From contig RBNJ01000162.1 of NCBI GenBank assembly GCA_003990765.1, positions 1 through 38,318 on the forward strand: a stretch of DNA of 38,318 nucleotides, written 5' to 3'. A program made the position numbers and the translations under genes. The notes under the pieces were generated by a model. That model made no database searches. It was given only the letters and a program-made list of their open reading frames with translations, and was not told where the DNA came from. Origin of the DNA: Jimgerdemannia flammicorona. Its lineage: Eukaryota. This document shows, piece by piece, positions 3,462 to 25,277 of the stretch. Position 1 is the stretch's first letter, and each line of letters starts with the position of its first letter.

Positions 3462-3919
3462 TAGTCTCTTTGTTATGGTAAAAGTTCTGGTCAGATGATA
3501 GTAATCCATATTGTTGACTATATCCTAAGATGAAAGTAACCATCTGTAAGATTTTAATGAAATAGTTAATAAACTTAATACAGTTGCTGACTTCATTAAT
3601 AAATTTATCCTGGTCTTATTCCACTCCATCTTGTTTATCTTGTTCATCTCATCTATCTTGTCTATCTCATCTGTCTTATCTATCTTATCTGTCTTATCTA
3701 TCTGTCTCATCCATCTGTCTCATCTATCTCATTCATCTCACCCATCTCATTTATCTGTCTCATCTATCTTATCTATCTTATCTATCTCATCCATCTTGTC
3801 TATCTTATCTGTCTGTCTCATCTGTCTCATCTGTCTGTCTTATCTATTATCTATCTCATTCATCTTGTCTATCTTGTCTATCTCATCCATCTCATCCATC
3901 TGTCTCATCTATCTCATCC
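3462..3919 (+). repeat. Left copy of a ~458-bp direct duplication flanking the PLE, including a 9-bp tandem array at ~3625-3919
   Basis: tagtctctttgttatggtaaaagttctggtc... recurs at 8402 onward. The copies differ only by transitions and by repeat-unit number. Confidence 0.9.
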
Positions 3920-4422
3920 AGAGGAGGAAGAAGGCCCAGCGGGAGCCAAGGGGGCAAACCCAGAGCCAGTGTCAAAGCGAATAGAAGACATGTGAAAGAG
4001 CATGTATAAGGGAGACGAACAAAGAACATAACTGAAATTGCATCAGCTGTTTATTGCCACATAAAAACGTGGTCCTTATATACAAAATACAATATCCCAA
4101 AAGGGAGGATGCACCACAACTCGGGGTGAACCGAATTAGGAACCACATGACCGCCAGAGATAGGCGGAGATAAAGGGGGAGCCAATCCCAGTTGCAGGAT
4201 AAAAATCACAAACAAACACAAACAAAAAAAATCCAAATTGAGATTAAAAAACATCCACAGACCCCAGAGGGGTAAGCGTGAGTGAGGGGTGAGGCCAAAA
4301 CAGAGCAAGCCACAGTGAGCCCAAGCGAAGCGAGGGGCTGAAGGCAGTGGAGGGGAGTGGAGTGAGGCCGAGACCCCGGAGCGAGCACGAGACCCCAGAG
4401 GGGGCAAGGATGTTTTTTAATC
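3920..4422 (-). repeat. 3' pseudo-LTR of the PLE (~503 bp)
   Basis: Direct repeat of 7578-8080. It begins at the RT stop codon, contains an internal 15-bp inverted repeat (4242-4256 / 4408-4422), and ends inside a copy of the ORF1 5' end. Confidence 0.9.
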
Positions 4423-6366
4423 CTCTTCGGCAGAACTGGAGGCACCAGAAGGTGATGAAAATGCAAAACAAGAGTGATAGATTGAAGAAGAAATAGAAGG
4501 AAGATGTGAACGAGCAATCAGAGGGCATCGGGAAAGAGATGAAAGTCCATGGCATAAAAGAGAAGAGCGCAGGATGGTATCAGGGCATTGAGCAACCCAG
4601 TGAGCACAATCAAATAGTATGACAAGAATTGGGGGTGGGAAAGAAGAGAGGGTACAGAGAGGGTAAGGGGGGAGAGAGGGAAGGGAGGGGGGATAAAGAG
4701 GAGAGAGGAGGGAAGAGCAAACAACAGACTATTCAATAGAAGCAAGCAGATCATGAATAATAGAAATAGGGTAGGCACGACGATGGACCACGAAGTTGCC
4801 AAGAACCCGAACAGCAGACACCCAATTAGAACGATGGGAGCAGTATAGTGCAAGACAATGAGCCTTACTCCAAACACATTCAAGAAGAGTGTAATGAGAA
4901 TGATTGGACAAGAAGTTAGGGAACTGTTGGGAATGGGGAAAATGAGAATAAACAACAGTTCAGAAAGGAGAAAGAGAAATGGAAAGGTCCAAAAAGGGAA
5001 TACTAGTCACACCGCACACCCAGGTAATAGAATGGTGGGGAGGGTAGATGCCCAAGAACACACTAGAGATATCAACATCAGCAACAGTAAAGACAATAAA
5101 GTCATCAATGTATTGGCAAAAGAAGATATCCCCAGCCCAGAATATAATGGAAAGAGGTGAAGTAATATCATGTAATGCATGCAATTCGTGGGCCAGGCCA
5201 ATGAGGTTGGCAAGGGTGGGGGCACAATTCATTTCCATGGCAATACCAGAAGTCTGGTGAAAGGAGCCAAGGGCTGACTCAAAATAATTAGAGCCGCAGA
5301 CGAGGAGCGTAAGCTCAACAATGGAAGCCAATGAAACTGGGGAATCCAAAGGAAAAACAATAGAACCCAAGAAGTGAAGGCAAGTATTGATCTCATCAAA
5401 ACGAATAGCAGTATAAAAGGAGGAGAAGTCACTAGTGGTCAAGTGGGAAAAATGATAAACAGGCACAATGGTGGAGCAGAGAAGGGTGAGCTCCTGAGTA
5501 TCATGAAGAATGGTGTACTCAGGCCCAAGATGGTGTTGTAAGAGAGCCATCCAGGAGAGGAAGAAGCAGGATAACTACTTCGAAATCTTGGTGGTAGGAG
5601 AACTATAAGCAGCTGTAATAGGACGCCAAGCCAAAGTAGGCTTGTGAACTTTAGGAAGAGCATAGAAAACCAGAAGAGAAATATCCGAGGAGGATAAAGA
5701 GTCCTGGAAGAAGTTAAAAATGGGGTTTGCGAATGGGAAATCTGAAAGCAATCTGGCATGAGCCAGAGAAACCCGAAGAAGAGTGAGAACCTCATCCAAT
5801 CTAAGAGCACTATGCTCATAAGCTATGGCTTGAAGGAGGGCAGAAAGGCCATCAAGGTAGAGCGACTTAGGAATAAGTGCAAAACCTTAATTCTTATCAG
5901 TGACTGTGAGCAAGTGTATAGGCAATTGCTTGACCGATTTAAGTATGGTATGTACGGCACAGTCCAAAACTAAGCAAGAGCGAGCATGTCCAGGAATAGA
6001 CAGCAAGCAAGCCATGTCGAGGAATATGCAGTGTGAAGAGATATTGGGAGGGGGGACCCAATCGCTAGGAACAAAATAGTGAGAGAGCATCTCACCATGA
6101 TCTTGAAAGAAAATGGCAAGGTCAAGAGTACACCGAAAATGTGTGAGACGAGCCAGATTGGTGAAGGAGAATTGTGAGGGAGTCGCAGGAAAAACAAAGT
6201 GAGGACCCAAGGATAAGGCAAAGACTTGAAGGGGAGAAAGGGGACAGTCAGCTGAAGAAAAGGGAGGAGATAAAAGAGCTCCAAGAGAAGAGTAAACTCG
6301 AAAGTTTGGGATAAGCAACTGGGAAAGACAAAGGGAGGACAACATGAGGAACCACTCAGGGCGCAC
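4417..6366 (-). pseudogene. PLE reverse transcriptase (ORF2), lacking a GIY-YIG domain
   Basis: ORF-track pieces 5887-6366, 5575-5799, 4960-5550 and 4729-4911 are all in one frame, separated only by in-frame stops. PLE motifs: SLGPHFVFP, TVTDKN, FYALPKVHKPTLAWRPI, TSDFSSFYTAI, QTSGIAMEMNCAPTLANL, QYIDDFIV, IPFLDLSI, thumb ...HRRAYP. The linker PLIARSHLPSIS is followed by stop TAA at 4419-4417. Confidence 0.9.
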
Positions 6367-6431
6367 TAGAAGCGACGACAGAATCTGAGAAGGGATGGGG
6401 ACACTGGGGGAGAACTATACTGGGGGGAAGT

Positions 6432-7649
6432 TTAAGAGTGAGAGGCCTTCCCCTTCCCTCTGACTTTTTTTGAAGGTGGCGAGCCTGATGAATGGGAGCA
6501 CACCCCATCAGAGTGCCAGACCTTGTGGCCACAGGCTTTCATGCAGCCCTTACATTCAGGGGTATGGGTGGAGGAGGCAGAGGAGGAACCGGTAGAGGAG
6601 GCTGAAGGCAAGCGAGCAGCCGAAGGGGCAGCAGCACAAGGAACACCACCATGAGGACAGATGGACTTGGCCGGGTGCCAGTAGGCATGGTGGAGGTGAC
6701 CAGAGCAGACAGCGCAAGGCCAGACCCCGATAGTGCGAGAACCAAGTTGGTGGCCACGCTTGGGGGTAGGGGGAATGGAGGAGGAAGCCTTGGTGGGGGA
6801 GGGGGACCGGGAAGAAGCCGACGAAGCCTGATTGGGCTTGGCAGGAGTCTTGGCAGAGGTCTTGGAGGGGGCCTTGGTGGCGGCAGTGGCGAAGGAATGA
6901 ACCTCAGCATGAGCAGTGGCATGAGCTTCGGCATGGATGGCCTCAGAGACTGAAACCTCAGAGGAGGTGGGCAAGGGAGCAGTGGCGGTGGTGCGAGCAG
7001 CAGCGGCAGCACGTGACAACTCCTGCTTGTGAAGGCGAGTAACAAAAGAGGTGCCGGCAAGGAGGAAATGACATACAGCATCAATGTCAACAGCAATAGA
7101 AGGAACATCTTGGATGGCGAAGCCACAGAAGAGGGCAGTATCTGAAAGGTGGGAGGAGGTGAAGGCCATGAAGGCGGCACAGGCACGATGGAAGGAGGTG
7201 GAAGCGGCAGCAGCGGAAGCAGCAGCAGTATCGGTGGCGGCGAGTTTGGTGGTGGCAGTAGTGGCACAAATCTCTTCAGAGAGGGCTTGGTGGTGGGCTT
7301 TAGGGAGAATAGAGTAGTAGATGGCAGGCAGAGCGACAATGTCGATGTCATGGCGGAGATGAGCCTCCTTGGTAGAGAGGACAAGAACTGACCAGAACTG
7401 AGAGAGGAGTAGATGACCAGAGGGATGAAGGTCTAAGGGGAGAGAAAGGATGGCAGATAAGATGTAGATCTTGAACAAGACAGTGGTGGGGGTGAAGGCG
7501 GGGGGAGGGGGAGGAGGAAGTTCCTCATCCATGAGCTCATTGACAAGGACAGAGGCCCCAAGAGCAGGTGGTATAGCAGAGGAGGAAGAAGGCCCAGCGG
7601 GAGCCAAGGGAGTGAACCCAGAGCCAGTGTCAAAGCGAACGGAAGACAT
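6432..7649 (-). CDS. PLE ORF1: ~405-aa Ala/Ser/Pro-rich protein with two C-terminal CxxC...WH...CxH zinc-binding repeats
   Basis: Uninterrupted ORF (track 6432-7676; likely ATG 7649, MSSVRFDTG). Motifs CAVCSGHLHHAYWHPAKSICPH and CKGCMKACGHKVWHSDGVCSH; basic tail KKVRGKGK. Confidence 0.7.
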   Translation of the reverse strand: MSSVRFDTGSGFTPLAPAGPSSSSAIPPALGASVLVNELMDEELPPPPPPAFTPTTVLFKIYILSAILSLPLDLHPSGHLLLSQFWSVLVLSTKEAHLRHDIDIVALPAIYYSILPKAHHQALSEEICATTATTKLAATDTAAASAAAASTSFHRACAAFMAFTSSHLSDTALFCGFAIQDVPSIAVDIDAVCHFLLAGTSFVTRLHKQELSRAAAAARTTATAPLPTSSEVSVSEAIHAEAHATAHAEVHSFATAATKAPSKTSAKTPAKPNQASSASSRSPSPTKASSSIPPTPKRGHQLGSRTIGVWPCAVCSGHLHHAYWHPAKSICPHGGVPCAAAPSAARLPSASSTGSSSASSTHTPECKGCMKACGHKVWHSDGVCSHSSGSPPSKKVRGKGKASHS

Positions 7650-8402
7650 GTGGAAGAGCATGTATAAGGGGGACAAACAAAGAACATAACCGAATTTGCA
7701 TCAGCCATTTATTGTCATGTAAAAATGCAGTCCTTATATACAAAATATGACATCCCAAAAGAGAGGACACACTACAACTCAGGGTGAACCAAATTAGGAA
7801 CCACATGACTGCCAGAGATAGGCAGAGATAAAGGGGGAGCCAATCCCAGTTGCAGGATAAAAATCACAAACAAATACAAACAAAACAAATCCAAATCGAG
7901 ATTAAAAAACATCTACAGACCCCAGAGAGGTGAGTGTGAGTGAGGGGTGAGGCCGAAATGGAGCGAGCCACAGTGAGCCTGAGCGAAGTGAGGGGCTGAA
8001 GGCAGCAGAGGGGAGTGGAGTGAGGCCGAGACCCTGGAGCGAGCGTGAGACCCTGGAGGGGGTAAGGATGTTTTTTAATCTCGATTTGGATTTGTTTTGT
8101 TTGTGTTTGTTTGTGATTTTTATCCTGCAACTGGGATTGGCTCCCCCTTTATCTCTGTCTATCTCTGGCAGTCATATGGTTTCTAATTCAGTTCACCCCG
8201 AGTTGTGGTGCATCCTCTCTTTTGGGATGTCATATTTTGTATATAAGGACTGCATTTTTACGTGGCAATAATTGGCTGATGCAAATTTGGTTATGTTCTT
8301 TATTCGTCCCCCTTATATATGCTCTTCCACATATCTTCTGTTCACTTTGACACTGGCTCTGGGTTTGCTCCCTTGGCTCCCGCTGGGCCTTCTTTCTCCT
8401 CT
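7578..8402. repeat. 5' pseudo-LTR (7578-8080) plus inverted arm (8066-8402): a palindrome with ~337-bp arms and a 151-bp spacer
   Basis: 8066-8402 is the reverse complement of 7578-7914 and of 3920-4256. Confidence 0.9.
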
Positions 8403-9000
8403 AGCTTCTTTGTTATGGTAAAAGTTCTGGTCAGGTGATAGTAATCCATGTTGTTGACTATATCCTAAGATGAAAGTAACCACCTGTAAGATTTTAATAA
8501 AATAGTTAATAAACTTAATACAGTTGCTGACTTCATTAATAAATTCATCCTGGTCTTATCCCACTCCATCTTGTTCATCTTGTTCATCTCATCTATCTTA
8601 TCTATCTCATCTGTCTTGTCTATCTTATCTGTCTTGTCTATCTGTCTCATCCATCTGTCTCATCTATCTCATTCATCTCACCCATCTCATTTATCTGTCT
8701 CATCTATCTCATCTATCTTATTCATCTCATCTATCTTGTCTGTCTTATCTGTCTGTCTCATCTGTCTCATCTGTCTGTCTTATCTATTATCTATCTCATT
8801 CATCTTGTCTATCTTATCTATCTCATCCATCTCATCCATCTCATCCATCTCATCCATCTGTCTCATCTGTCTCATCTATCTCATTTGTTTCATCTATCTG
8901 TCTTATCTATCTCATCCATCTTGTCTAACTATCTCATCCATCTATCTCATCTATCTCATCTGTCTTATCCATCTCATCTATCTTGTCCATCTCATCTATT
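8402..9000 (+). repeat. Right copy of the duplicated segment (8402-~8885) and continuation of the 9-bp tandem array in a transposase intron
   Basis: Units TCT[CA/TG/TA]TC[CA/TG/TA], consistent with an ancestral (TCTCGTCCG)n. The array lies upstream of the acceptor ttacag|GTGGTT on the minus strand (~8483). Confidence 0.85.
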
Positions 9001-9784
9001 TTATTTGATTTGTTCTCATTCTCTTAAAAAATTAAAAATAATATACATATCTCCAGAGTTTTCCCAAATGTCAATTGTCTGTATTGAATAAGTTCTTCAT
9101 TTCTATATATTCTTTATACAATATCATGTTCTTTGAAATGTTCTTGAACATTATGTAATCTTTTTTTGAAAATACTATATATCAATTCATATATATTTTT
9201 GTATATAGATATATTATAAAAGATATAAGTAATATTATTTTATTTACATTTACCAGTAATGTCAAATTCTTTCAACTGTGAATTTATATCTATAGCTTCT
9301 TTTAAAAAGGCATCTTGAACATCTCTTAACTAAGCAGAAATTTTCTCTAGCTATTTTTCCAAATATTGAAGAGAAAGCTAAGAGTGCTTCAAATAGTTGT
9401 AAGGTTTTTTGTTACAATAATTTAATTTTCACAATTTTTGAATATATATTTTAACTTTCTCCTCTTTTTTCTCTTTCTTTTCTTTCTTTTCTTTCTTTTC
9501 TTCCTTCTCTTCTATCTGCTTATTATCTTTATTGTCTTTTTTGATGATTTGAGTAAGCTTATCTAATACATAAGATATATTATAAAGTAATTATATTTAG
9601 TAAAGTTGTTGAGGTGTTATAATATCTAGTTCCAGTTCTATATTAAATTCAGCAATAAATTCTATATTATCAATTCTGATAATATTAGATTCAACAATAG
9701 GTTCTATATCAATTTCAGTAATATTAGATTCTATATCTAAAGTAGATTGATTAAATATAAATAAAATTATTAGATTAATATATG

Positions 9785-9932
9785 CAAGTTATAAGCTATA
9801 AATTCTAAGCTACTATATAAGTTTTTTTTTTTTATACTAGCTGTTAGCTAAGCCACAAGCCATAAGCTGCAAGCCACAAGCTACTGTAATAACTATAAGC
9901 TATAATAACTGTAAGCTACAATAACTATAAGC
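9785..9932 (+). repeat. 7/10-bp tandem array (AAGC[CA/TG/TA]C), left part
   Basis: aagccac/aagccat/aagctgc/aagctac units; the array continues after the LINE at 15813. Confidence 0.8.
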
Positions 9933-10105
9933 AGGGACTTTTTTTGCTTAAACCACTTAGAGTGAGCTAAGCCACATAGGCATCTTTCAGCAAAAGACAA
10001 TATGTTTTCAAGTTTTTATTTCGAATATACTGGTATACATCACATGGCAGGAGTCTACCTACAAGGTACAATAAGTTTCAAGGAAAACTGTCAAGTTTTG
10101 ATAAT

Positions 10106-11975
10106 ATGGCTAGTCAAGATTTCTCTAGCTCTGAGTATCTGGAGAAGAGAAGGCCCAGTTTGGATATTCTCAAGAGCTTTGCAGCTACTGCAGGGGCTGG
10201 TATAGCTGCAAGAGGGGCTGGTGGGCTAGGGAGAACTGGAGAGATTGAGGTCTGGCATATGGTGGTTGAGAATAGGAGGGCTGCAGCTAGGTCCATGGAA
10301 GTGGAACAGGGGGAGTATAGTGTTGACAGGAAGAGAGGTCAGGTGATGAGTCAGGTGACAGGTCGGGTGGCTGGCAGGAGACAGGGGTCTGGTGGCGTGA
10401 TGCTGGGGACTAATTCTTCTGTAGCTGAGCAGATGGCTGGGGAGAGGACTGTAGGTAGCATAGCTGTACTTGGTGAGATAACTATAGGTATTTTAGGGAC
10501 TAAGAGAAAGATGATGCTGGCAGCTGAGATAGGTGAGTTAGTGGTGAGGCCCTTCTTCTATAAATCAGTATTGATATTAGTGATCTCAGTGAACTTTCTA
10601 AGATTGGTGATGTCAGTGTGGGAGGTTCTGAGACTGGTGGGGGAGGAGGTGGCTGGGGCAGAATCTCTGAAGTTCATCTCTTTGGCAGAGGCTGTGGAGA
10701 TTGGATTTGTGGAGGAGAATATAATGGTGAAGGTACTGAAGAAAGGGATGATGGTCAAGGGTGTCCAGATTGGGATGGCAAGGTGTCTGAGGTGGGATCC
10801 ACGTGCTGTTTGGCTGGTGGTGGAAGGACTGCCAACCCTGGGCAGACAGGAGACCAAGGAGATGGTAGTAGAGGCACTGGGTGGATATGGTGAGATGGTG
10901 GACTTCAGGTTCATGTTCTGGGAGGGCACCAAGTTGAGAAATGATAACTGTGAGGTAATGCTGTGACTGGAAGGCAAGGAGGTGACTGGGCTGGGCCATG
11001 ATTAGCCTGAAGGGATTAGAATTAGGAGATAAGAGTGCAAGGTGTGGAGGAGGAAGAGAGCAGAACAGGAGGAGAAAGAGTTAGCAATTGCTCTGGAGGA
11101 GAGAGAGGCTACCAAGGAGCTGTAAAAGAGGAAGTGAGAGGAGTATGCCAAGGATTGGGTCTGGATTCAGGCAGATGGCAAGCAGAAGAGGTGGAGGAAA
11201 GGGAACTGGGAGTGTCTGCAGGTGGCCCTTCAGGGGGCAGTAGTGGAAGAGAAGGTAAGAATAGAGGCAGCCAAGAATCAGATGGAAGGAGTAGAGGCAG
11301 CAGATGTGTCCTTCTCCCAGCTGGGTGGTGTAGAGGACTTGGCACATGCACTGGTGAGAGGAAAGTGAGCAGATAAGGAGAAGGCTAGTAAAGGAGGCTT
11401 TGAGATTGATATTGAAGTGGTGCTGGAGACTTAGGTAGAGGACACCCATATGGCTGGGGCAGCGAATGTTCATTGAGAGTGCCCAGAAGCTGGTGAGGTA
11501 ATTTATTTAGAGAAAGTAGTGGAGGAGAATGAGCTGGTGGATATGGCTTCTGATGTGTTAGTAGATAGAGAATAACTGCAAGAGCTGAGCAGGACCCCCA
11601 GGCCTTCAACTCCTGGGCCCCTGGTGATGATGGCGGAGAGTTGGTACCAGGCAGTGCTGGAGGAGCTGGCCGAGGAAGATATCAAGGAAGTGGACATGTT
11701 TCATGGATCTCAGGAGGCATGGGAAGGATTTCTCAATGTAGCGATACAGGGGCCTAAGCTGGTGATGGCAATAGTAGCTGCCCTTCTGGATGATGAAGGA
11801 TATGATGTTGATAAGAGTAGAATGGCCGACATCAGGAAGGTGGCAACAGAAAGAGTGGACCTTTTCTGCAGTAGTATAAATGGTGATCGAATCTGGAGGG
11901 TAATTTGTGAGGACCAGTGAGAGATTATTAGAGGAAGGGCTGAGAAGGTGGTGGCGGTCCCAACTGAGCTTTAAA
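10106..11975 (+). pseudogene. LINE ORF1 relic
   Basis: Segment WLVVEGLPTLGRQETKEMVVEALGGYGEMVDFRF...TKLRNDNCEV resembles the RRM-like region of L1/Tx1 ORF1. Multiple stops. Confidence 0.7.
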
Positions 11976-11986
11976 TAATTTTCTTA

Positions 11987-14900
11987 ATGATGATGAACAA
12001 TCTATGTATTTTATTGATCAATGTCAATAGATTGCAGGATAGTGTTAAAAGATGGTGGCTTTTCAGATGGCTTAAAGTCAGGAGGTATGATATTATATTT
12101 CTTCAGGATGTTTGGACTTATGGTGAGTCAGACTATGAGATTTGGAGTAAAGAATGGTATGGTAGAGCAGGTTGGAATATGTAGGTGGGCATCTTGGTTG
12201 ATATAGGCAAAGACAAGTTGGTGGAGGTAGAGAGTTATGGCAACAGACTGATTTGGGGAAGACTAAAAGGAGGGGCAGGAGATGGTTTGACAGTTGGCTC
12301 AGTTTACCTCCCTGCAGTTGGCAGAGAGTAAAAGCAATAGGTTGAGAGATGGCAGGCATGAGATGGTCAGAAGGTAGTTGCTTTGGACATTCTGAGGGGG
12401 GACTTCAATATGGTGCATAATTGAATACTGGATAGATCTAATGGTGGAGCAGGAGTCACGGTATCCTCTGGACTTTCTCAATGGCTTCAGGTGGAGTATG
12501 ACATGGACTTGGTGGATGGCATTCATCAATGACAGGGGGATGAGTTGGGACCTTTCACCTGGTGGCACCCAGTTGGAACAGTATTGGTTGGGATACGAAT
12601 AGATTGGGTACTAGTGGTGGAGTACTGGGGTAATGTACTGGATACTGCTGAGGTGTGCTGGTACTCTTGGTCTGATCACTGGGGAGTGGAGGTTTGTAGG
12701 AGATTCCAAGTAGTAGGCAGTGGTGGAGGGTGCTGGTATCTCAATATGGCCTTACTCAAGAGGAAGAAGGAGAGGGACAATTTTGTGATAGTTATGAAGC
12801 AGAAAGTTATGCGATAGTAGAACGAAGAGCAGTTGATAGCAGAATGGTAGAGTAAATTCAAATATTTGGCTGATGCTTACTAGTGTGATATTGGAGAAGT
12901 GGCTGAGAAAGAACAGAAGGATAAGAAAAGGAGAGTAGAGAAGGGACTGAGATGGCAATTGAAGCTTTTAGAAAAGGGGAACTTATCTGGGGAGGTGTGC
13001 CACTGATTGGTATTAGAGGTGGTAGAGTTGCAGGTGGATTTAAAGGTGTCTGAGACCAGGGTAGTAGATGGTCTGCTGGCCAGGCTGTGAGCTAGATGGT
13101 TGGAAGAAGGAGAGAGGTCGATGAGATATCTGTCTGGTATCTTGAAGGCCAGGAGAATATGACATAGTTGGGTCTTAGTATTGTACAAAGATGGAGTAGA
13201 GGTCTCTGGGATTACTGACATGTTAGGGAAGATATCTGGCCAATGGCAAGCTCTTTGGCAGGATAGTGGAGAGTATGTGGAGAATACTGGGCTTGAGGAG
13301 GATAATGACAATATGGTGAACAGTTGGCCAGTGACAGCGATACCTGAGAATAGGGGAAGCAGTCATGGGGGAGGTATCTCTAGATGAAGTATTAGAAGTA
13401 CTGAGGAAAATGCAGACTGGTTCATCTCCTGGGGAGGATAAGTTGCCCTGGGAATTCTGGAAGGAGTTCAAGGCCAAGTTTGGTGACTGGTTGGTGGAGA
13501 TAGCCAATGCTGTTCAGAAGGAGGATTGCTGGATTAGCAATGATTCCTTGGGGCTAGTGTCTCTTCTATACAAGGAAAAGGGAGATTGATGGGTGTGGCA
13601 TAATTGGTGACCTATCATGCTGCTGAATGTGGATAGAAAGTTGGTGTCAAAGATTCTAGCAGGGAGGATGCAGCAGTATGTTGGTACACTAGTTAGAGAA
13701 GAGCAGTGAGGCTTTGTCAAGGGGAGGCAGATCAGAGATAGTATTGCCTGGGTGCAGAATGTCTTAGAGAGCTGTAGGAGCTGGCAAGTAGATGGCCAGA
13801 TAGTCTTTCTGGATCAAGAGAAGGCCTATGACAGAGTGTGGTGGAGTTACCTAGAGGCTGTCCTGAGGAGGGCAGGGTTTGGTGTAGTAGAGGCAGAGCA
13901 TCTGATGGGCTTGGTATGGAGATACTGAGCAGTGGTAATGATGAATGAATGGTGTAGACCAGAGTTTGCCTTGGAGCAAGGGGTACTACAGGGGGATCCT
14001 CTCTCCCCCCTTCTTTATGTACTTTCTCTAGAGCTTTTGCTAGTAGGGCTGAATGGGTGGCTCTCTGGACTGAAGATGGGAGATGTGGTCTGGCAGCTGA
14101 GTGTCTTTGCAGATGACATAGTGGTAGGGTTGGGTAGTCAGGAGGATGTAGAAGCCCTACAAGAGGGGGTTGGACAGTATGAGAGACTGGCAGGGGTAAA
14201 GTTGAACTGGGGCAAGTATGAGACAATGGAACTTGGTGCTGGCCTGGGAGGCCATGGACAATTCAGACAACTGGTAGCTGCAGGGAGTGCTGTTTGATAT
14301 CTGGGTATCTAGTTCTTGGTGTATGGGACAGTTCTGCCAAGGGAGTGATGGTGTGAATTAATTCAGAAGCTGGAAGGTACACTGGCTGGTTGGTCAGAGA
14401 GGAGCTTCTCCTTGGTTAGCAGGATAGTGGTCTTGAATATATATTGGCTGCCCAAACTGTAGTATCTGGGTTATCATCTAGATTTTCCTGGGTGGGTGGT
14501 GCAGTAGCTGAAGAAGATTGTAGAAGGGTGGTTGTGGCATAGGAGATATCTGCAGATTGGATGGGAGACTTTGATGATGAGGACTTCTGATAGAGGCCTG
14601 GGGCTGGTGGATTTCAGGTACCAGCTGAAGATACTTCAGAGTTGGTGGGGGTGCCAAATGATGGAACTAGGTGAGGAAGGTTGGGGCAGGCTGGCTATGG
14701 ACAATTGGGAGGTCCAGTTCTGCCCTCATGGTGAGGTTTGGAAGGATATGTGGGGCTTGCTTCAGGTTAGGAGTATAGGCAGACTGTGATTTAAGGGGTT
14801 CTGGTGGAGTATTGTAGAAGCCTGGCTGGCCATGGGGTTGGCAGGCCCAGAGATAGAGGTGGGTGAGAACTCTGAGCAGAGGTGGTGGCAACTAAGAGAC

Positions 14901-15620
14901 CTTCACGTTGGTGGCCATAGTCTGAAGGAGTACTCTCTGATTGAGGCAATGGAGTGAATCAGGTCCAGCCCTCTAGAGAGATGACCACCTGGGTGGCAGA
15001 GAGCTGATATTGGTGAAGACTGGGAGTGGGTTCAAATTTGGAATTAGGGAGCCTCGGTATACAAGATGGTGCCACTCAAATACTGAGTGGTTTGGTGGTG
15101 ATTTTTGAGATGTAATGTGATGCTGAGCTATTGGACAGACTGGATGGAGATAGATGGCTGTTGGGACTATGAGTGGTGTAATGAGGTAGATAGAGGAGTT
15201 GTTCAGACACCAGAATATGTTCTGGGGGTCTGCCCAGATGTGGAAGGGTTTTGGTAGAGTTTGGAAGATTACTGGAGCTCAGGGAGGTAAAGGGCAGAGG
15301 ATCTGACCAGTCTGGTGGTCAAGTGCCAGCTGGTAGGGGAAATTGGTGATATATGGGAGAGTCTAAATTAAGTTTTGGGGGTCTAGGTCTTGATGGTGGT
15401 ATATTGGTAGTGGATTTTTGAACAAGACCTATGGATGGGGATTGGAGAGATGGTAGAGTAGTGGAGGTGGCTTCTCCAGGAGGTGGTTCAGGGGTGGTGG
15501 TATCAGGGAAAGCAACTTCAACCAAGGGCCTTAAGAAAGGTACAGGACATTGTACAGAGAAGTCAAGAGTACTTGGTTTTAGATGATCGTAGGGTAAGAT
15601 AGAAGGAAAGAATTGACTGA
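11987..15620 (+). pseudogene. LINE ORF2 relic (APE endonuclease, RT, C-terminal Cys-rich region)
   Basis: APE motifs: LINVNRL, YDIIFLQD, GDFN, RIDWVLV, SDHWGV. RT motifs: SSPGEDKLPWEFW, PIMLLNVDRKLVSKILA, FLDQEKAYDRV, GVLQGDPLSPLLY, VFADDIVV, YLG, GLGLVDF. Many stops. The 3' end is approximate. Confidence 0.92.
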
Positions 15621-15714
15621 AGGGCTCTACTTATGTATATTATGTGATATTAGTAGTAGTTTGTGGTTGGTTGTTATTGTATTAGATAGTTCATAATAAA
15701 GAAGTCTAAGTGAC

Positions 15715-15748
<34 letters not shown>

Positions 15749-15777
15749 AAAACAAAAAACAAAAAACAAAAAAAAAA

Positions 15778-15812
<35 letters not shown>

Positions 15813-15814
<2 letters not shown>

Positions 15815-16055
15815 CAATAATTGTAAGCTACAAGCTGTAAGCTACAAGCTACAAGCCACAAGCTATAAGCCACAAGCTGCAAGCTGCAAGCCATAAGCCA
15901 CAAGTTATAAGTCACAAGCTACAAGCTGCAAGCTACAAGCTGTAAGCCACAATAACTATAAACTACTATAAACTATTATAAGCTATTAAAAGCCACTATA
16001 AGCTACTATAAATTACTACTAGTTACTATGAGTTACTATAAGTACTATAAGTTAT
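15813..16055 (+). repeat. 7/10-bp tandem array, right part (in transposase intron 1)
   Basis: aagctac/aagccac/aagctgc units followed by aactactata-type 10-mers; the intron donor is at 16069 on the minus strand. Confidence 0.85.
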
Positions 16056-22100: not shown

Positions 22101-24270
22101 GTCTCTCAACCCTTACCCAAACCAAAACCACAACCCACCTTTCGTCCACCCGGCCCACTCCTCATCTAGTGGATACTCGACCTTCATCCTCAACACACCC
22201 ACGAGCTTTCTATACACAAGATAGGCAGCCTCCCTCGCCCTTCTCGCCTCCTCCTCTCTCACGATCCTCTTCGCCGTCTCCTCAGGGTCGACGAGTTCCT
22301 CATCATCGCCGTTTCCGCCCCCACCGCCCAGTACCTCCGCGTCCACAAGCGACTCTTGTAGGTCGTACCAGAAATTGAGGGGGATCTCACTGATCTCCTG
22401 ATCGGCGCCAAAGTGGCCGGGAAAGCCTGCAAACCCGATCATCATGTCCAAGTATGAGATCACGTCCCCCCGAAGCAGGTGCCGCGCGATGAAGTCGGTG
22501 TAGCTTTCGCCGAAGCTCGTCATGATCCGGCAGAGGGTGCGCGCGGATTGGTCGTCGTTTTCTGAGCGGGAATGGATTTCGGAAACGTTAAGAGCTAATC
22601 AGTGGGATGTAATACCAATACGCTACATTCCTAGTCTCAATCCCACACGTTCGCGCCTTCTCCAATCCCCGTATCCCCAACCACGCGTTGCGACAATCTA
22701 CCCATCCACCAACCCCATTCCATCAAACTTACCGTTGACACACCTCGCAAACTCGCCCTGCGCCCACTCGCTCGTCACACACACCAGCACATCCTCGCAC
22801 AGCCTTAGGAACGACGAGTGAGTTGGATGCGACATGACCTCCAATAGTGCGTCCGCCGCGGGTTCAAACAGCGCGGGGACGGGGAGGAGCGACATTGTGA
22901 GCTGCACGAGGGGGTAGGATGTTCTGTTCAGGAGAAAGAAAAGGAGGGGTATCGGTGTGAGATCCAATGTCGGTCGAAACAAAGTAGAAGCAATAATTGA
23001 TGAAAGGCAGGGAAACGTACAGCAGCGGGATCCCGTATTGCACCCAGCTCTGGAAGCACCGCAACGCCTTCTGCTTGACCACGACATCGGCATTGCCGTG
23101 GGGAAGGGGCTCGGCGAGGAAGGTTTGGAGGGTCGTAATGACGAGGGGAACGGCATCCAGGAGTTCCTGATTGATCTTGGCCCTAGGAGAGGGCACAGTG
23201 AGGTGAGGCGTTGGTGGGATACCGTTACGTTGTCGGGGTTATCTCGCCACTACGCTCTAAATCCCTTTCTTTTTCATTCCTTTCCCACCTCTCCTATCCG
23301 ATTAGGAGAACCACTTACTTCCGGTCGCCGATCAGATCCGCCGTGCTGACCTCCTCCGGTACGACGGTCAGGAACTCGAGTAGTGTGACCTTCACGTTGC
23401 GTGGATTCTTGCCCTGGGCCTGCGCACCGGACTGAAGGATGTGGCAGAAGTCCGTGATAAAGTGGGGCCATTTCGTGGGAACAGCGTGGAGGGCGTAGGC
23501 TGTCAGCTGGAGGAGAGTTGTTTGGTTAGTCAGGAGGTAGTCGGGATATCGAACGAGGGGTGAGCGAAGGAGGAGAGTCATGTACGAACGGCCAGGCAGA
23601 GTTTGGTGGTGACGAAGGTAGGGCCGTCACAGAGCCGGATGAGCCAAGTCAGGAGTTCCTGTCGTAGCCATGGGATACGGTCCTCCGGAATTGTGTCCCT
23701 GCGTGGTGATTATTTTCGAATTTTACAAGGAGAGCTTGGTACTCCTGTAGATGAGCGCGAAAAGAGTAGAGAGCTAAATCACGATACCAGTCTCTCGATA
23801 TTTTCACTTGGAACGTATGGGCACCGAAGAACTGGCAGTTGATGGACTATTTATCACAGTTCGAGGCAGAACGGAGAAGAACGGCAAAGAGAATGGCATA
23901 ACGTCGCGTTAAAACTCGTGGGACGCAGTACGCGTCATTCCGATGGACGACAAGCCCCACGTTAAGAGCAAGTTTTCACGTCTCCCTCCTCTTCTCGGAA
24001 CGCGACGTACCGGCGAGGCAAGAAGCTGCGGGGCTAATTCCCAGGCGTATGGCTGCTTCTGCAGGGTGTGCAGGAAGTCTTGGGCCTGTTTCGCGAACTG
24101 GGGGTCGCTGCTTGCGTACAACTGGTCGATAACCTGTTGGGTTTGTATTATTTTGTGGGGGTGTGCAAGCAAACGAGTTGGTGTTTGTATATTTGGATGG
24201 TTTATTCGGTTGGTGTCTTTGTCTTGCATACCTGCTGAACCTGTACTATATTTTGCTGCTGGTGCTGCAT
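19183..24270 (-). CDS. IPO13: Importin-13-like karyopherin beta (multi-exon)
   Basis: Spliced product MQHQQQNIVQVQQ|VIDQLYASSDP..AWELAPQLL|..FFGAHTFQVKISRDW|..LLEFLTVVPEEV|..EISEIPLNFWYDLQESL..|FRIFRRDVGDTL..|SYAEWLKSHPEFLLPALNYL..|RFREVVQEFSLKCRKLEDTAFGAAV*. Confidence 0.85.
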
Positions 24271-24368
24271 TAATGGTGGGTTGGGTGTTTGTGGGCCAGG
24301 CCAGCTTCTTTTCTATATGACATGTGGCTTCGTGCGAATCATGTGACACCCTTCTACACTCCGACACC
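24271..24368. promoter_or_regulatory. Compact bidirectional promoter
   Basis: Only 98 bp separate the divergent ATGs (24270 and 24369). The interval contains TATATGACATGTGG and ATCATGTGAC. Confidence 0.6.
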
Positions 24369-25277
24369 ATGAACCACCGACACTCACTGCTTCTGCTCCT
24401 CCCCCTCCTCCTCGCCGTCTTCTCCGTATTTCCTCCATCCGTTCGCGCCCAGGGTGAGATCCCTCCCAGCGTTGTCGTCGACTTGACTGACTCAGATATC
24501 GGCCAACTCGAAAAGGGCGAGTGGTTGATCGAATTGTAGGTCGTTTCCGCCCCTCTCGATCTCGCGCTTACTCTATGCCACCCCCACCCCAAGGTTCAGC
24601 CTCAAACGTTACATCTAAACCAACCGCCCAGCTATGCTCCATGGTGCGCCGCCTGCCACCGCTTCAAAGGGTTCTACGACCTGGCCGCGTTTATGGTCTT
24701 CGACCACGACCCTAGCATCCAGCTAGCAAAGGTCAATGTCGATGACAACCCGGGACTGTCAAGCCAGTTCTTCGCGTTCCGGTTACCCGCCTTCTACCAC
24801 ATCAAGGATGGGCAAGGTAAGCATTATTATTCATAGTATTGAGGTCTACCGCCGCATCACGTTACCGATCACGATTATTCGCTTGCAGTCCGCGAAGCAC
24901 GCATCAGGCTAGATACGCCCCAGGGCGCCATCGACTACCTTAAGCGCCAAGAATGGAAGAATTCCAAAGTGTGGGACAACCTCTTTTCGCCTTTCTCAAC
25001 CTTGTAAGTGCCCTCATTTTCATCTCTTTTCTTCCCATCCGACCCCACCACGTTCTCACTCAACTCCGTCCCCAGCGGCCACTTCATGAACCGGATCGGC
25101 CGCTCCGCAAAGTACATAGTCGACCATCGCGAGGATATCAAGCGGGGCGCACTCTACGTCGGCGTCGCCTGGCTCGCCTACATTGCTTTCGCCAAGGTCG
25201 CCGAGGTAATATCCCTGGTGAAGGTGACGATTCCTGTAGCAGCTGTGGAGGTAGACGAGCCGAAAAAGACGAAGTAG
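24369..25277 (+). CDS. Thioredoxin-related transmembrane protein (TMX1-like ER oxidoreductase), 4 exons
   Basis: Signal peptide; GEWLIEF|YAPWCAAC active site; AKVNVDDNPGLSSQFFAFRLPAFYHIKDG; one TM helix; C-terminal KKTK dilysine ER-retrieval motif. Exons 24369-24535, 24632-24816, 24889-25003, 25076-25277. Confidence 0.88.

What the first reader, a model, noticed from the sequence alone, without database searches (positions are those of the whole stretch)
4242..4422. Pseudo-LTR carries a 15-bp inverted repeat that sets the inversion breakpoint and encloses an array of GNA-triloop DNA hairpins on the cDNA strand
Seen: GATTAAAAAACATCC (4242-4256) and GGATGTTTTTTAATC (4408-4422) bracket a 151-bp purine-rich spacer. 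In the other pLTR the switch into the inverted arm happens exactly at this repeat (8066-8080). The spacer contains GC-GAA-GC (4325-4331), GCT-GAA-GGC, GT-GGA-GT and twice CCCC-AGA-GGGG. Comparing the two copies (CCCCAGAGGGG vs CCCTGGAGGGG) reconstructs an ancestral CCCC-GGA-GGGG. Established: d(GNA) triloop mini-hairpins such as GCGAAGC are exceptionally stable and nuclease-resistant in ssDNA but not in RNA. Here they lie on the strand antisense to the ORFs, i.e. the first-strand cDNA. Inference: an encoded ssDNA structure for second-strand priming, cDNA joining or end protection, reminiscent of hairpin termini of ssDNA replicons.
Basis: partly seen in the sequence, partly recalled or inferred. 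Interest (0 to 1): 0.72.

Follow-up and report, generated by a model that had tools for sequence, protein, structure and literature searches.

The report
Strand-specific fold-back hairpin in fungal retrotransposon
The end of a fungal jumping gene carries a 181-base stretch predicted to fold into one long hairpin, far more stably on its DNA-copy strand than on its RNA, and the element flips into a mirror copy of itself at that hairpin, which offers a testable explanation for the puzzling inverted ends of Penelope-like elements.

Summary
The 15-bp inverted repeat is real. It closes the pseudo-LTR start of a high-copy, endonuclease-less Penelope-like element (window 3919-8402, minus strand) in an Endogonales fungus. 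The inversion sits at it in 81 of 85 junctions (sample partly junction-biased; 27 of 27 ORF1-drawn junctions lie at it or just inside).

The spacer is not an array of mini-hairpins. In CpG-intact copies it is one rod continuing the stem: 41 Watson-Crick pairs against 18-21 in shuffles, helices separated by GA/GA and GGA/GGA loops, and a forked tip with two C-GAA-G loops. It folds much better on the purine (cDNA) strand. Between two subfamilies, all three helix changes are compensated. The four off-site junctions fall in the rod's register.

Best reading (about 0.58): the cDNA end folds back and primes the inverted copy. Junction palindromes, a 15-bp overlap and self-priming are already in print (PMC3846280); I found no paper on the G·A rod. 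This scan noted the feature before on other DNA of this genome, several notes calling the G·A/GNA pattern chance; my tests disagree. No bench, RNA or second-species evidence.

The parts
3919..8402 (-). Whole endonuclease-less Penelope-like insertion: inverted arm, 5' pseudo-LTR, ORF1, RT ORF2, 3' pseudo-LTR
   Evidence: self-BLAST; 779 candidate matches in the genome; same layout in many loci
3919..4422 (-). 3' pseudo-LTR, 504 bp, 90% identical to the 5' copy
3917..3927 (-). Fixed outer end of the family, used at both ends of insertions; equivalent to about 70 nt inside ORF1; inferred reverse-transcription start
   Evidence: 137 outer ends, mode 3920-3921; ORF1 position; role inferred by analogy with PMC11167929
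4242..4256 (+). Left arm of the 15-bp inverted repeat (5' strand of the closing stem on the cDNA-polarity strand)
   Evidence: columns 97-100% conserved except the CpG at 4256
4257..4407 (+). 151-nt spacer forming one rod. Helices CCCC/GGGG, GGGGT/ACCCC, GCGC/GCGC, GC/GC, GGGGT/ACCCC, GGCC/GGCC, AC/GT, GC/GC, CC/GG, GC/GC are separated by GGA/GGA, GA/GAG, GA/GA, GA/GGA, GA/GAG, GAA/AA, GGA/GGA, GAG/GGA and GCA/GGA loops (letters of a CpG-intact natural copy, window register)
   Evidence: folds and shuffles; covariation; off-site junctions
4320..4336 (+). Tip ear 1: CCC-GA-GC-GAA-GC-GA-GGG; subfamily B has one more base pair (GGC-GAA-GCC)
4337..4345 (+). Tip ear 2: GCC-GAA-GGC (decayed to GCT-GAA-GGC in the window copy)
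   Evidence: drawn as a side ear by inspection, alternative pairings exist in the computed folds
4408..4422 (+). Right arm of the 15-bp inverted repeat; start of the pseudo-LTR; contains the ORF2 stop codon (4419-4417 on the minus strand)
4417..6507 (-). ORF2, telomerase-like reverse transcriptase, 696 aa in unbroken copies, five in-frame stops in the window copy; no GIY-YIG endonuclease
   Evidence: best structural match TERT, E 2.9e-08
6422..6471 (-). Run of seven A followed by a possible pseudoknot at the ORF1/ORF2 overlap; candidate -1 frameshift signal
   Evidence: A-run 97-100% conserved in 91 copies; complementary words seen; function inferred
6432..7700 (-). ORF1, 422 aa stop to stop, conserved Met near 7649, Ala/Pro/Ser-rich with Cys/His motifs; no family assigned
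7577..8080 (-). 5' pseudo-LTR with its own inverted repeat (7900-7914 and 8066-8080) and spacer (7915-8065)
8066..8402 (+). Inverted arm, 337 bp, 93% complementary to the adjacent direct arm; ends at the mirror of the fixed outer end
3467..3920 (.). Left copy of a 454-bp flanking direct repeat (long target duplication)
   Evidence: 95% identical to 8407-8856
8407..8856 (.). Right copy of the flanking direct repeat

Best explanation
The 15-bp repeat and spacer form one fold-back hairpin at the 3' end of the first-strand cDNA of an endonuclease-less Penelope-like element.
1. (Inferred) The RT is primed by a host DNA end at a pre-existing break and starts at a fixed site about 70 nt inside ORF1.
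2. (Inferred) It copies to the RNA 5' end, near the right arm of the repeat.
3. (Predicted computationally) The last 181 nt fold into a rod of short Watson-Crick helices joined by sheared G·A loops, closed by the 15-bp stem, so the 3' end is base-paired to its own strand.
4. (Inferred) That end primes DNA-templated copy-back, producing the inverted arm or, if copying runs through, a head-to-head dimer.
5. (Inferred, least certain) The second host end is attached at the same start site on the copied-back strand.
Because the mismatches are G·A on the cDNA but U·C on the transcript, the hairpin would be strong only on the cDNA, which could spare the mRNA and the chromosome a perfect palindrome (inference). 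Shown here: junction position, rod complementarity, strand bias of predicted energy, covariation, fixed mirror ends, shared template of the arms.
For: - Junction at the repeat in 81 of 85 inversions; the other 4 end exactly at rod helices: GGGGT/ACCCC in L071, L149, L177 and CCCC/GGGG in L072, with the outer part replaced by a perfect copy of the left strand.
- A search allowing 0-450 nt between arms found 87 junctions: 84 at 173-177 nt, 3 shorter by internal deletion.
- Rod: 41 Watson-Crick pairs against 17.8-21.4 (maximum 35) in 2- to 5-mer and block shuffles, with no G·A term. Turner energy -72.8 on the purine strand (0 of 200 shuffles as low in each of six nulls) against -55.1 on the other strand; strand difference reached by at most 1 of 200.
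- Subfamily B versus A: C-G to T-A (4295/4367), A-T to G-C (4300/4363) and a paired insertion in ear 1; other differences lie in loops.
- GGA sits in internal loops and GAA in terminal loops, matching NMR reports that GGA triplets prefer zipper duplexes and GAA hairpins (PMC11014236) and that CGAG blocks form stable DNA hairpins (PMC10085684).
- The two palindrome arms share a six-site haplotype in 67 of 76 junctions (18% expected at random), and follow the 5' rather than the 3' repeat where these differ. Dimer halves differ by 0-3 transversions in 12 of 13 pairs against 6-11 to other copies.
- Both outer ends lie at 3917-3927 (137 ends); 29 of 32 complete inserts have no target duplication.
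- 4 of 18 head-to-tail jumps stop at 4392-4414. 0 of 86 3' repeats carry a reversed spacer.
Against: - No experiment, no RNA data, and the transcript start is unknown. If transcripts begin in the inverted arm, the junction is simply inherited.
- Plain copy-back does not give monomers with a reversed spacer, yet 6 occur against 48 normal ones, in different lineages (L170 reclassed as a dimer by eye).
- Nothing shown explains directly why the copy-back ends at the fixed site.
- ViennaRNA DNA parameters give the spacer alone no advantage over shuffles (z +0.4), though they have no GNA bonus. The G·A-aware evidence uses RNA parameters or a score I designed after seeing the fold.
- Covariation rests on three events between two subfamilies of one family in one genome. 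The ear-1 insertion was forced by the search pattern for the later B copies; it is independent only in the first 12.
- No related locus was found in metagenomes.
Confidence: 0.58

Rival explanations
1. Twin priming: both ends of a break are primed at the fixed RT start site, on the same transcript or on transcripts of the same master. The two cDNAs then join head to head by pairing each 15-nt end with the other's internal complement. The rod only organises or protects the unpaired spacers.
For: Explains directly why both outer ends are the same site, why dimers are common (16 of 85) and why reversed spacers occur (6 in the main family). The RT model is telomerase-like, and a related PLE protein extends both target strands in vitro (PMC11167929).
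Against: Symmetric annealing predicts about 1:1 spacer orientation; observed 48:6. Short-plus-short solo palindromes are predicted, but none was found in the main family; the three 'solo' calls are diverged subfamily B copies with bodies. Arms and dimer halves share a template. The four off-site junctions need intramolecular rod pairing or an equivalent register.
Confidence: 0.17
2. The purine strand acts as an antisense RNA, whose 3' end folds back and self-primes reverse transcription, as hypothesised for rotifer Penelope elements.
For: Tandem G·A pairs are scored as stable by RNA parameters (z -4.3). Self-priming on an antisense template is proposed in PMC3846280.
Against: Both terminal loops are C-GAA-G triloops in both subfamilies, the DNA mini-hairpin type (PMC5009754), not GNRA tetraloops (the RNA preference is recalled). 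The fixed end inside ORF1 parallels initiation on the sense RNA in PMC11167929. No antisense transcript is known.
Confidence: 0.1
3. The junction is an old scar passed on by read-through transcripts that contain the inverted arm. The CpG-rich, repetitive spacer is a promoter or protein-binding element, and its complementarity is a by-product of repeated words.
For: Head-to-tail copies show that templates can run through the hairpin (L005, L011, L089, L156). The whole element is purine-biased on this strand. Part of the junction sample was drawn with a junction query.
Against: Rod complementarity survives shuffles that keep 5-mers or 10-nt blocks. Helix changes between subfamilies are compensated. 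New junctions arose in rod register. Dimers and reversed spacers occur in several lineages. A transcript start mirroring the RT start would be a coincidence.
Confidence: 0.1
4. One reading: an array of independent GNA mini-hairpins that mainly protects the free cDNA end from nucleases.
For: CGNAG occurs 9 times against 3.2 expected in an intact copy. ACCCC-GGA-GGGGT and CCCC-GGA-GGGG could fold locally with as many pairs as in the rod. Such mini-hairpins resist nucleases (PMC5009754).
Against: Only 4 of the 9 CGNAG words have a stem of 2 bp or more. The compensatory changes and off-site junctions follow the long-range register. GGA triplets are reported to favour zipper duplexes (PMC11014236).
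Confidence: 0.05

Closest known systems
Endonuclease-bearing Penelope elements of Adineta vaga, e.g. Pen2a_Av (PMC3846280; part 1 of 5 and passages read)
   Same: Two direct pseudo-LTRs plus an adjacent inverted one; in Pen2a_Av the inverted copy overlaps the direct one by 15 bp; 18- and 38-bp palindromes at pseudo-LTR 5' ends; self-priming proposed.
   Different: Those elements have a GIY-YIG endonuclease and 8-10 bp target duplications, and the paper favours an antisense template. In the parts I read, no G·A rod, 151-nt loop or reversed-spacer isomers are described.
Endonuclease-deficient PLE clades Athena and Coprina (as described in PMC8557442 and PMC4209133; passages read)
   Same: Telomerase-like RT without endonuclease; separate ORF1 with a possible frameshift and pseudoknot; fungal host.
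   Different: They attach to telomeric repeats and carry hammerhead ribozymes. This family is dispersed in hundreds of copies, has no telomeric repeats at 147 ends and no hammerhead core in four copies. Clade placement was not tested by a tree.
PAc (Poseidon) of Anolis carolinensis (PMC11167929; parts 1-2 of 4 read)
   Same: Reverse transcription starts at a fixed site inside the ORF (111-118 nt there, about 70 nt inferred here), and this site defines the genomic ends.
   Different: PAc cuts its own target. Second-strand synthesis and inverted repeats were not resolved in that work.
pFOXC retroplasmids of Fusarium oxysporum (PMC3035579; passages read)
   Same: An RT-replicated fungal element whose DNA has a hairpin end; its RT can extend snapped-back and loosely paired primers and copy DNA.
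   Different: Free linear mitochondrial plasmids, protein-primed, with a covalently closed end; not integrated, and no G·A rod in the passages read.
G·A-rich DNA hairpins: CGAG blocks (PMC10085684), satellite III guanine zippers (PMC11014236), GCGAAGC mini-hairpins (PMC5009754); passages read
   Same: The same building blocks: tandem sheared G·A pairs, GGA/GGA zippers, GNA triloops, with the purine strand far more stable than the pyrimidine strand.
   Different: Those are short repeats or synthetic oligos with no tie to reverse transcription. Here the blocks are ordered into one conserved rod of about 55-57 Watson-Crick pairs including the closing stem.
Forked terminal hairpins and flip/flop isomers of parvoviruses (recalled, no call)
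   Same: Long terminal hairpin with a forked tip; both loop orientations occur.
   Different: No Rep nuclease or capsid here; orientations are 48:6 rather than equal; the hairpin is strand-specific. A resemblance only.

Membership tests
Penelope-like elements (PLE) | RT most closely related to telomerase RT | tested here: met
   The AlphaFold model (pLDDT 83.6) has TERT as its top four PDB matches; DK motif at 204-205 and catalytic DD in the alignment; ESM neighbours are mostly rotifer RT clusters.
Penelope-like elements (PLE) | Pseudo-LTRs, direct and inverted, from tandem and inverted copies | tested here: met
Penelope-like elements (PLE) | Ends defined by an initiation site inside the ORF | tested here: inconclusive
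   The fixed end lies about 70 nt into ORF1; initiation itself was not measured.
[quoted passage not shown] | GIY-YIG endonuclease at either end of the RT | tested here: not met
   No GIY-YIG Pfam hit in two 696-aa copies, in ORF1 or in 20 of the top relatives scanned.
[quoted passage not shown] | Short target-site duplications | tested here: not met
   29 of 32 complete inserts show no duplication above chance length within 900 nt; 3 have duplications of about 214, 251 and 1000 bp.
Coprina/Athena endonuclease-deficient PLE | No endonuclease domain | tested here: met
Coprina/Athena endonuclease-deficient PLE | Attachment to telomeric repeats | tested here: not met
   0 of 147 outer ends have two tandem TTAGGG-type units within 100 nt; the host's own telomere unit was not determined.
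Coprina/Athena endonuclease-deficient PLE | Hammerhead ribozyme in the pseudo-LTR | tested here: not met
   No Rfam hit in the window or three other copies; no CTGANGA...GAAA core on either strand of four copies. Atypical variants could be missed.
Coprina/Athena endonuclease-deficient PLE | RT falls inside the Coprina clade | not tested
   No named reference set was available. Nearest named relatives are RTs of Racocetra fulgida (36%) and Puccinia sorghi (27%).
DNA GNA mini-hairpin / sheared G·A zipper | C-GNA-G loops and tandem GA or GGA motifs in an antiparallel stem | tested here: met
   Sequence pattern only: 17 of 18 internal-loop strands of the shaft begin with G and contain GA or GNA (read from the structure).
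DNA GNA mini-hairpin / sheared G·A zipper | Thermal and nuclease stability as single-stranded DNA | not testable with these tools
   The DNA energy set has no GNA bonus; needs melting, probing or NMR.
Hairpin-ended ssDNA replicons (parvovirus type) | HUH/Rep nuclease that resolves the hairpin, with equal flip and flop | tested here: not met
   No such family hit in either ORF; orientations 48:6. The defining features are recalled.

The most novel reading that the evidence does not exclude
This family defines a route of endonuclease-free retrotransposition in which a genome-encoded, cDNA-only G·A-zipper hairpin with a forked GNA tip acts as a self-priming end. The RT heals both ends of a chromosome break at one fixed start site, and the hairpin intermediate is resolved into monomers, dimers and flip/flop isomers. 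That would explain inverted pseudo-LTRs mechanistically and how a non-telomeric, ribozyme-less, endonuclease-less PLE reached hundreds of copies.
Probability: 0.35. Interest if true: 0.8.

Novelty: new variant of a known kind. Interest (0 to 1): 0.56.

Why it matters
How Penelope-like elements make their tandem and inverted repeats is stated as unresolved in PMC8557442, and the one in vitro study leaves second-strand synthesis open (PMC11167929). This family supplies a defined, covarying 181-nt candidate structure, natural mis-primed products that map its register, and an RT with no endonuclease to confound the test. If it holds, it is a case of a retroelement using a non-canonical DNA structure that forms on the cDNA but only weakly on the RNA. 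The layout itself is known for the class, and the scan has flagged this family before.

Tried and rejected
- Hammerhead or other known RNA family: none.
- Symmetric 1:1 flip/flop: my first idea, rejected at 48:6.
- Reversed-spacer monomers arising from dimers by direct-repeat recombination: disfavoured because the matching solo palindromes were not seen in the main family. Inversion between the two arms after insertion is not excluded.
- DNA-parameter folding of the spacer alone is uninformative (z +0.4 and +1.0). With the 15-bp stem both strands beat shuffles (z -3.8 and -3.1).
- In one search, several 'both sides changed' cells in the GCGC helix are CpG decay, and G-U is counted as paired; only columns 102/177 and 107/172 were taken as real covariation.
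- More distant families for independent covariation: protein searches of the own genome listed only close copies, judged by identity and ORF length; the metagenome scan found none; the first protein search found none.
- RNA runs: none was listed, which is no evidence either way.
- I recalled long target duplications for Chlamydomonas PLEs; the paper attributes them to a Dualen LINE (PMC9977147, passages).
- PMC6431247 and bioRxiv 10.64898/2026.07.22.740005 (passages) added nothing on the junction. The 2007 paper on telomeric PLEs was not held.
- Literature searches for a G·A or GNA hairpin at PLE junctions, or for this host's PLEs, returned no such paper. The library lacks most subscription papers, and I read no supplements; the consensus files of PMC8557442 or Repbase might hold this family.
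- No complex prediction was run.

Full report
WHAT THE ELEMENT IS. Window 3919-8402 is one insertion on the minus strand: an inverted arm (8066-8402), a 504-bp pseudo-LTR (7577-8080), ORF1, an RT ORF and a second pseudo-LTR (3919-4422), flanked by a 454-bp direct repeat. The family is abundant, with 779 first-look candidates. Unbroken copies encode a 696-aa ORF2 whose model matches telomerase RT best. No GIY-YIG domain was found in it, in ORF1 or in 20 top relatives scanned. Named relatives are fungal RTs at 27-36% identity. A host gene in the window is 99% identical to proteins labelled Jimgerdemannia flammicorona and 71% to Endogone, so the host is an Endogonales fungus. There is no hammerhead and no telomeric repeat at 147 ends. 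It is an endonuclease-less Penelope-like element that departs from the Athena/Coprina description in PMC8557442 (passages).

THE OBSERVATION. The repeat occurs 809 times in the genome against 0 for the control. Two points fail. The window copy has no excess of GNA hairpins (p=0.46); only CpG-intact copies do (p=0.001 for stems of 3 bp or more). And the spacer's purine content (71-72%) is close to that of the whole element (65-69%).

BREAKPOINTS. Among 180 loci I found 172 distinct spacer-bearing repeats: 85 followed by the end of ORF2, 85 by an inverted arm, 2 other. Of the 85 junctions, 80 switch at 4254-4256, 1 differs only by an A-run length change, and 4 lie at 4269-4273. Part of the sample was drawn with a junction query. 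In the 30 loci drawn by ORF1 alone, all 27 junctions lie at the repeat or at these inner positions. A motif search allowing 0-450 nt between arms gave 87 junctions, 84 at 173-177 nt and 3 shortened by deletion. The classes are 48 monomers like the window, 16 head-to-head dimers, 6 monomers with the spacer reversed, 12 complex or contig-cut cases and 3 subfamily B copies the script could not class (L170 moved from reversed to dimer by eye). Reversed copies and dimers lie in several lineages. No 3' repeat has a reversed spacer (0 of 86).

THE STRUCTURE. Folding a natural CpG-intact copy (L025) shows one rod that continues the 15-bp stem. Ten helices of 2-5 bp are separated by loops such as GGA/GGA, GA/GA and GA/GAG, and the tip can fork into two ears capped by C-GAA-G. 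With no G·A term, 41 Watson-Crick pairs fit, against means of 17.8-21.4 in shuffles that keep 2- to 5-mers or blocks of 6 or 10 nt (40 shuffles each, maximum 35). Turner energies, used as a proxy because they score tandem G·A, give -72.8 on the purine strand (0 of 200 shuffles as low in each null) and -55.1 on the other; at most 1 of 200 shuffles reaches that strand difference. The DNA parameter set has no GNA bonus and gives the spacer alone no advantage, so DNA stability rests on the literature: CGAG blocks (PMC10085684, passages), guanine zippers with GGA preferring duplex and GAA hairpin (PMC11014236, passages), and GCGAAGC (PMC5009754, passages). The placement of GGA in internal loops and GAA in terminal loops fits those rules.

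INDEPENDENT SUPPORT FOR THE REGISTER. An older subfamily B (22 copies, 13 of canonical length) differs from the main family by C-G to T-A at 4295/4367, A-T to G-C at 4300/4363 (the C inferred from CA/TG decay), one added pair in ear 1, a swap of GAA/AA to AA/GAA and one loop change at 4406. No fixed difference breaks a helix. One search shows the first two pairs in a ten-copy alignment chosen by me. The ear-1 insertion is independent of the search pattern only in the first 12 B copies. Second, the four off-site junctions end exactly where the right strand's ACCCC or GGGG pairs with the left strand's GGGGT or CCCC in the rod, and continue as a perfect copy of the left strand. That is what extension of a slightly short, folded 3' end would leave. 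Two copies delete the whole hairpin through a 4-nt microhomology and one deletes its tip.

THE OUTER ENDS. Both ends of insertions map to 3917-3927 (137 ends, mode 3920-3921), with 50% matches at 3917-3918 suggesting short microhomology to the target. This site is about 70 nt inside ORF1, paralleling internal initiation in PAc (PMC11167929, parts 1-2). Of 32 complete inserts, 29 have no target duplication and 3 have 214 to about 1000 bp, as expected for use of existing breaks (inference). The palindrome arms share a haplotype in 67 of 76 cases, and dimer halves are near-identical in 12 of 13 pairs, the exception being misaligned by a deletion. Of 148 outer ends, 18 distinct ones follow element DNA, and 4 of these stop at 4392-4414, hinting that first strands end near the right arm.

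MECHANISM. The most likely path (0.58) is target-primed synthesis from the fixed site, fold-back of the cDNA end on the rod, copy-back, and attachment of the second host end at the same site. Twin priming with intermolecular annealing (0.17) explains the mirror ends and reversed spacers better but predicts equal orientations and solo palindromes. An antisense-RNA version (0.10), simple inheritance of an old junction (0.10) and independent protective mini-hairpins (0.05) follow. All priming steps are inferred; no RNA run was listed.

COMPARISON AND NOVELTY. Inverted pseudo-LTRs, a 15-bp overlap, junction palindromes and a self-priming hypothesis are published for rotifer Penelope elements (PMC3846280, part 1 and passages). 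A hairpin-ended RT replicon is known in pFOXC (PMC3035579, passages). My searches found no report of a strand-specific G·A rod, reversed-spacer isomers or in-register mis-primed products in a PLE, within a library that lacks most subscription papers; I read no supplements. The scan's notes list this feature on other pieces of the genome (8 shown of 355 fitting). They agree on the element and junction; three call the G·A or GNA pattern chance or a by-product of repeats, which contradict once CpG-intact copies and subfamily B are used. Verdict: a real feature, a new variant of a known kind, interest 0.56.

Noticed in passing
window 6422-6471 (minus strand): A conserved run of seven A followed by a possible pseudoknot at the ORF1/ORF2 overlap suggests a -1 frameshift joining the two ORFs.
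   Followed up: partly
window 3467-3920 and 8407-8856; L154, L164, L165: Very long target duplications (454, 214, about 251 and about 1000 bp) flank a minority of inserts, while most have none.
   Followed up: partly
window 4417-4422: The ORF2 stop codon lies inside the right arm of the 15-bp repeat, so the stem overlaps the end of the coding sequence.
   Followed up: no
window about 9980-15815: A decayed LINE-type retrotransposon on the plus strand (QGDPLSP and FADD motifs at 13929-14297, poly-A at about 15712-15812), flanked by 7-bp-unit tandem repeats near 9836-9930 and 15829-15961.
   Followed up: no
L211-L290 (viral contigs): The ear-1 15-mer occurs in at least 124 viral-contig stretches; in 52 of 79 distinct contexts the stem extends by at least 1 bp and in 27 by at least 2, more than an even base composition would give. 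No control pattern was scanned. None of the 22 best-folding contexts printed shows the long rod.
   Followed up: partly
L139:5857-5859 and L165:1087-1089: Two copies lack the entire stem-loop of the 3' repeat, deleted through an AATC microhomology; L064 lacks the rod tip.
   Followed up: partly
L018, L045, L048, L078: Several head-to-tail jumps join the fixed start site to body positions 5278-5410, a possible pause or truncation hotspot inside ORF2.
   Followed up: no
L138, L153, L168: The 5' and 3' pseudo-LTRs belong to different haplotypes, suggesting recombination or template switching between copies.
   Followed up: no
window about 3609-3918 and 8549-9029: A TCTATCTCA-like 9-bp degenerate tandem repeat lies in the duplicated flank, into which the element inserted.
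   Followed up: no
window 22113-24595 (minus strand): Exons of a host armadillo-type (importin-like) gene, used to place the host among Endogonales.
   Followed up: partly
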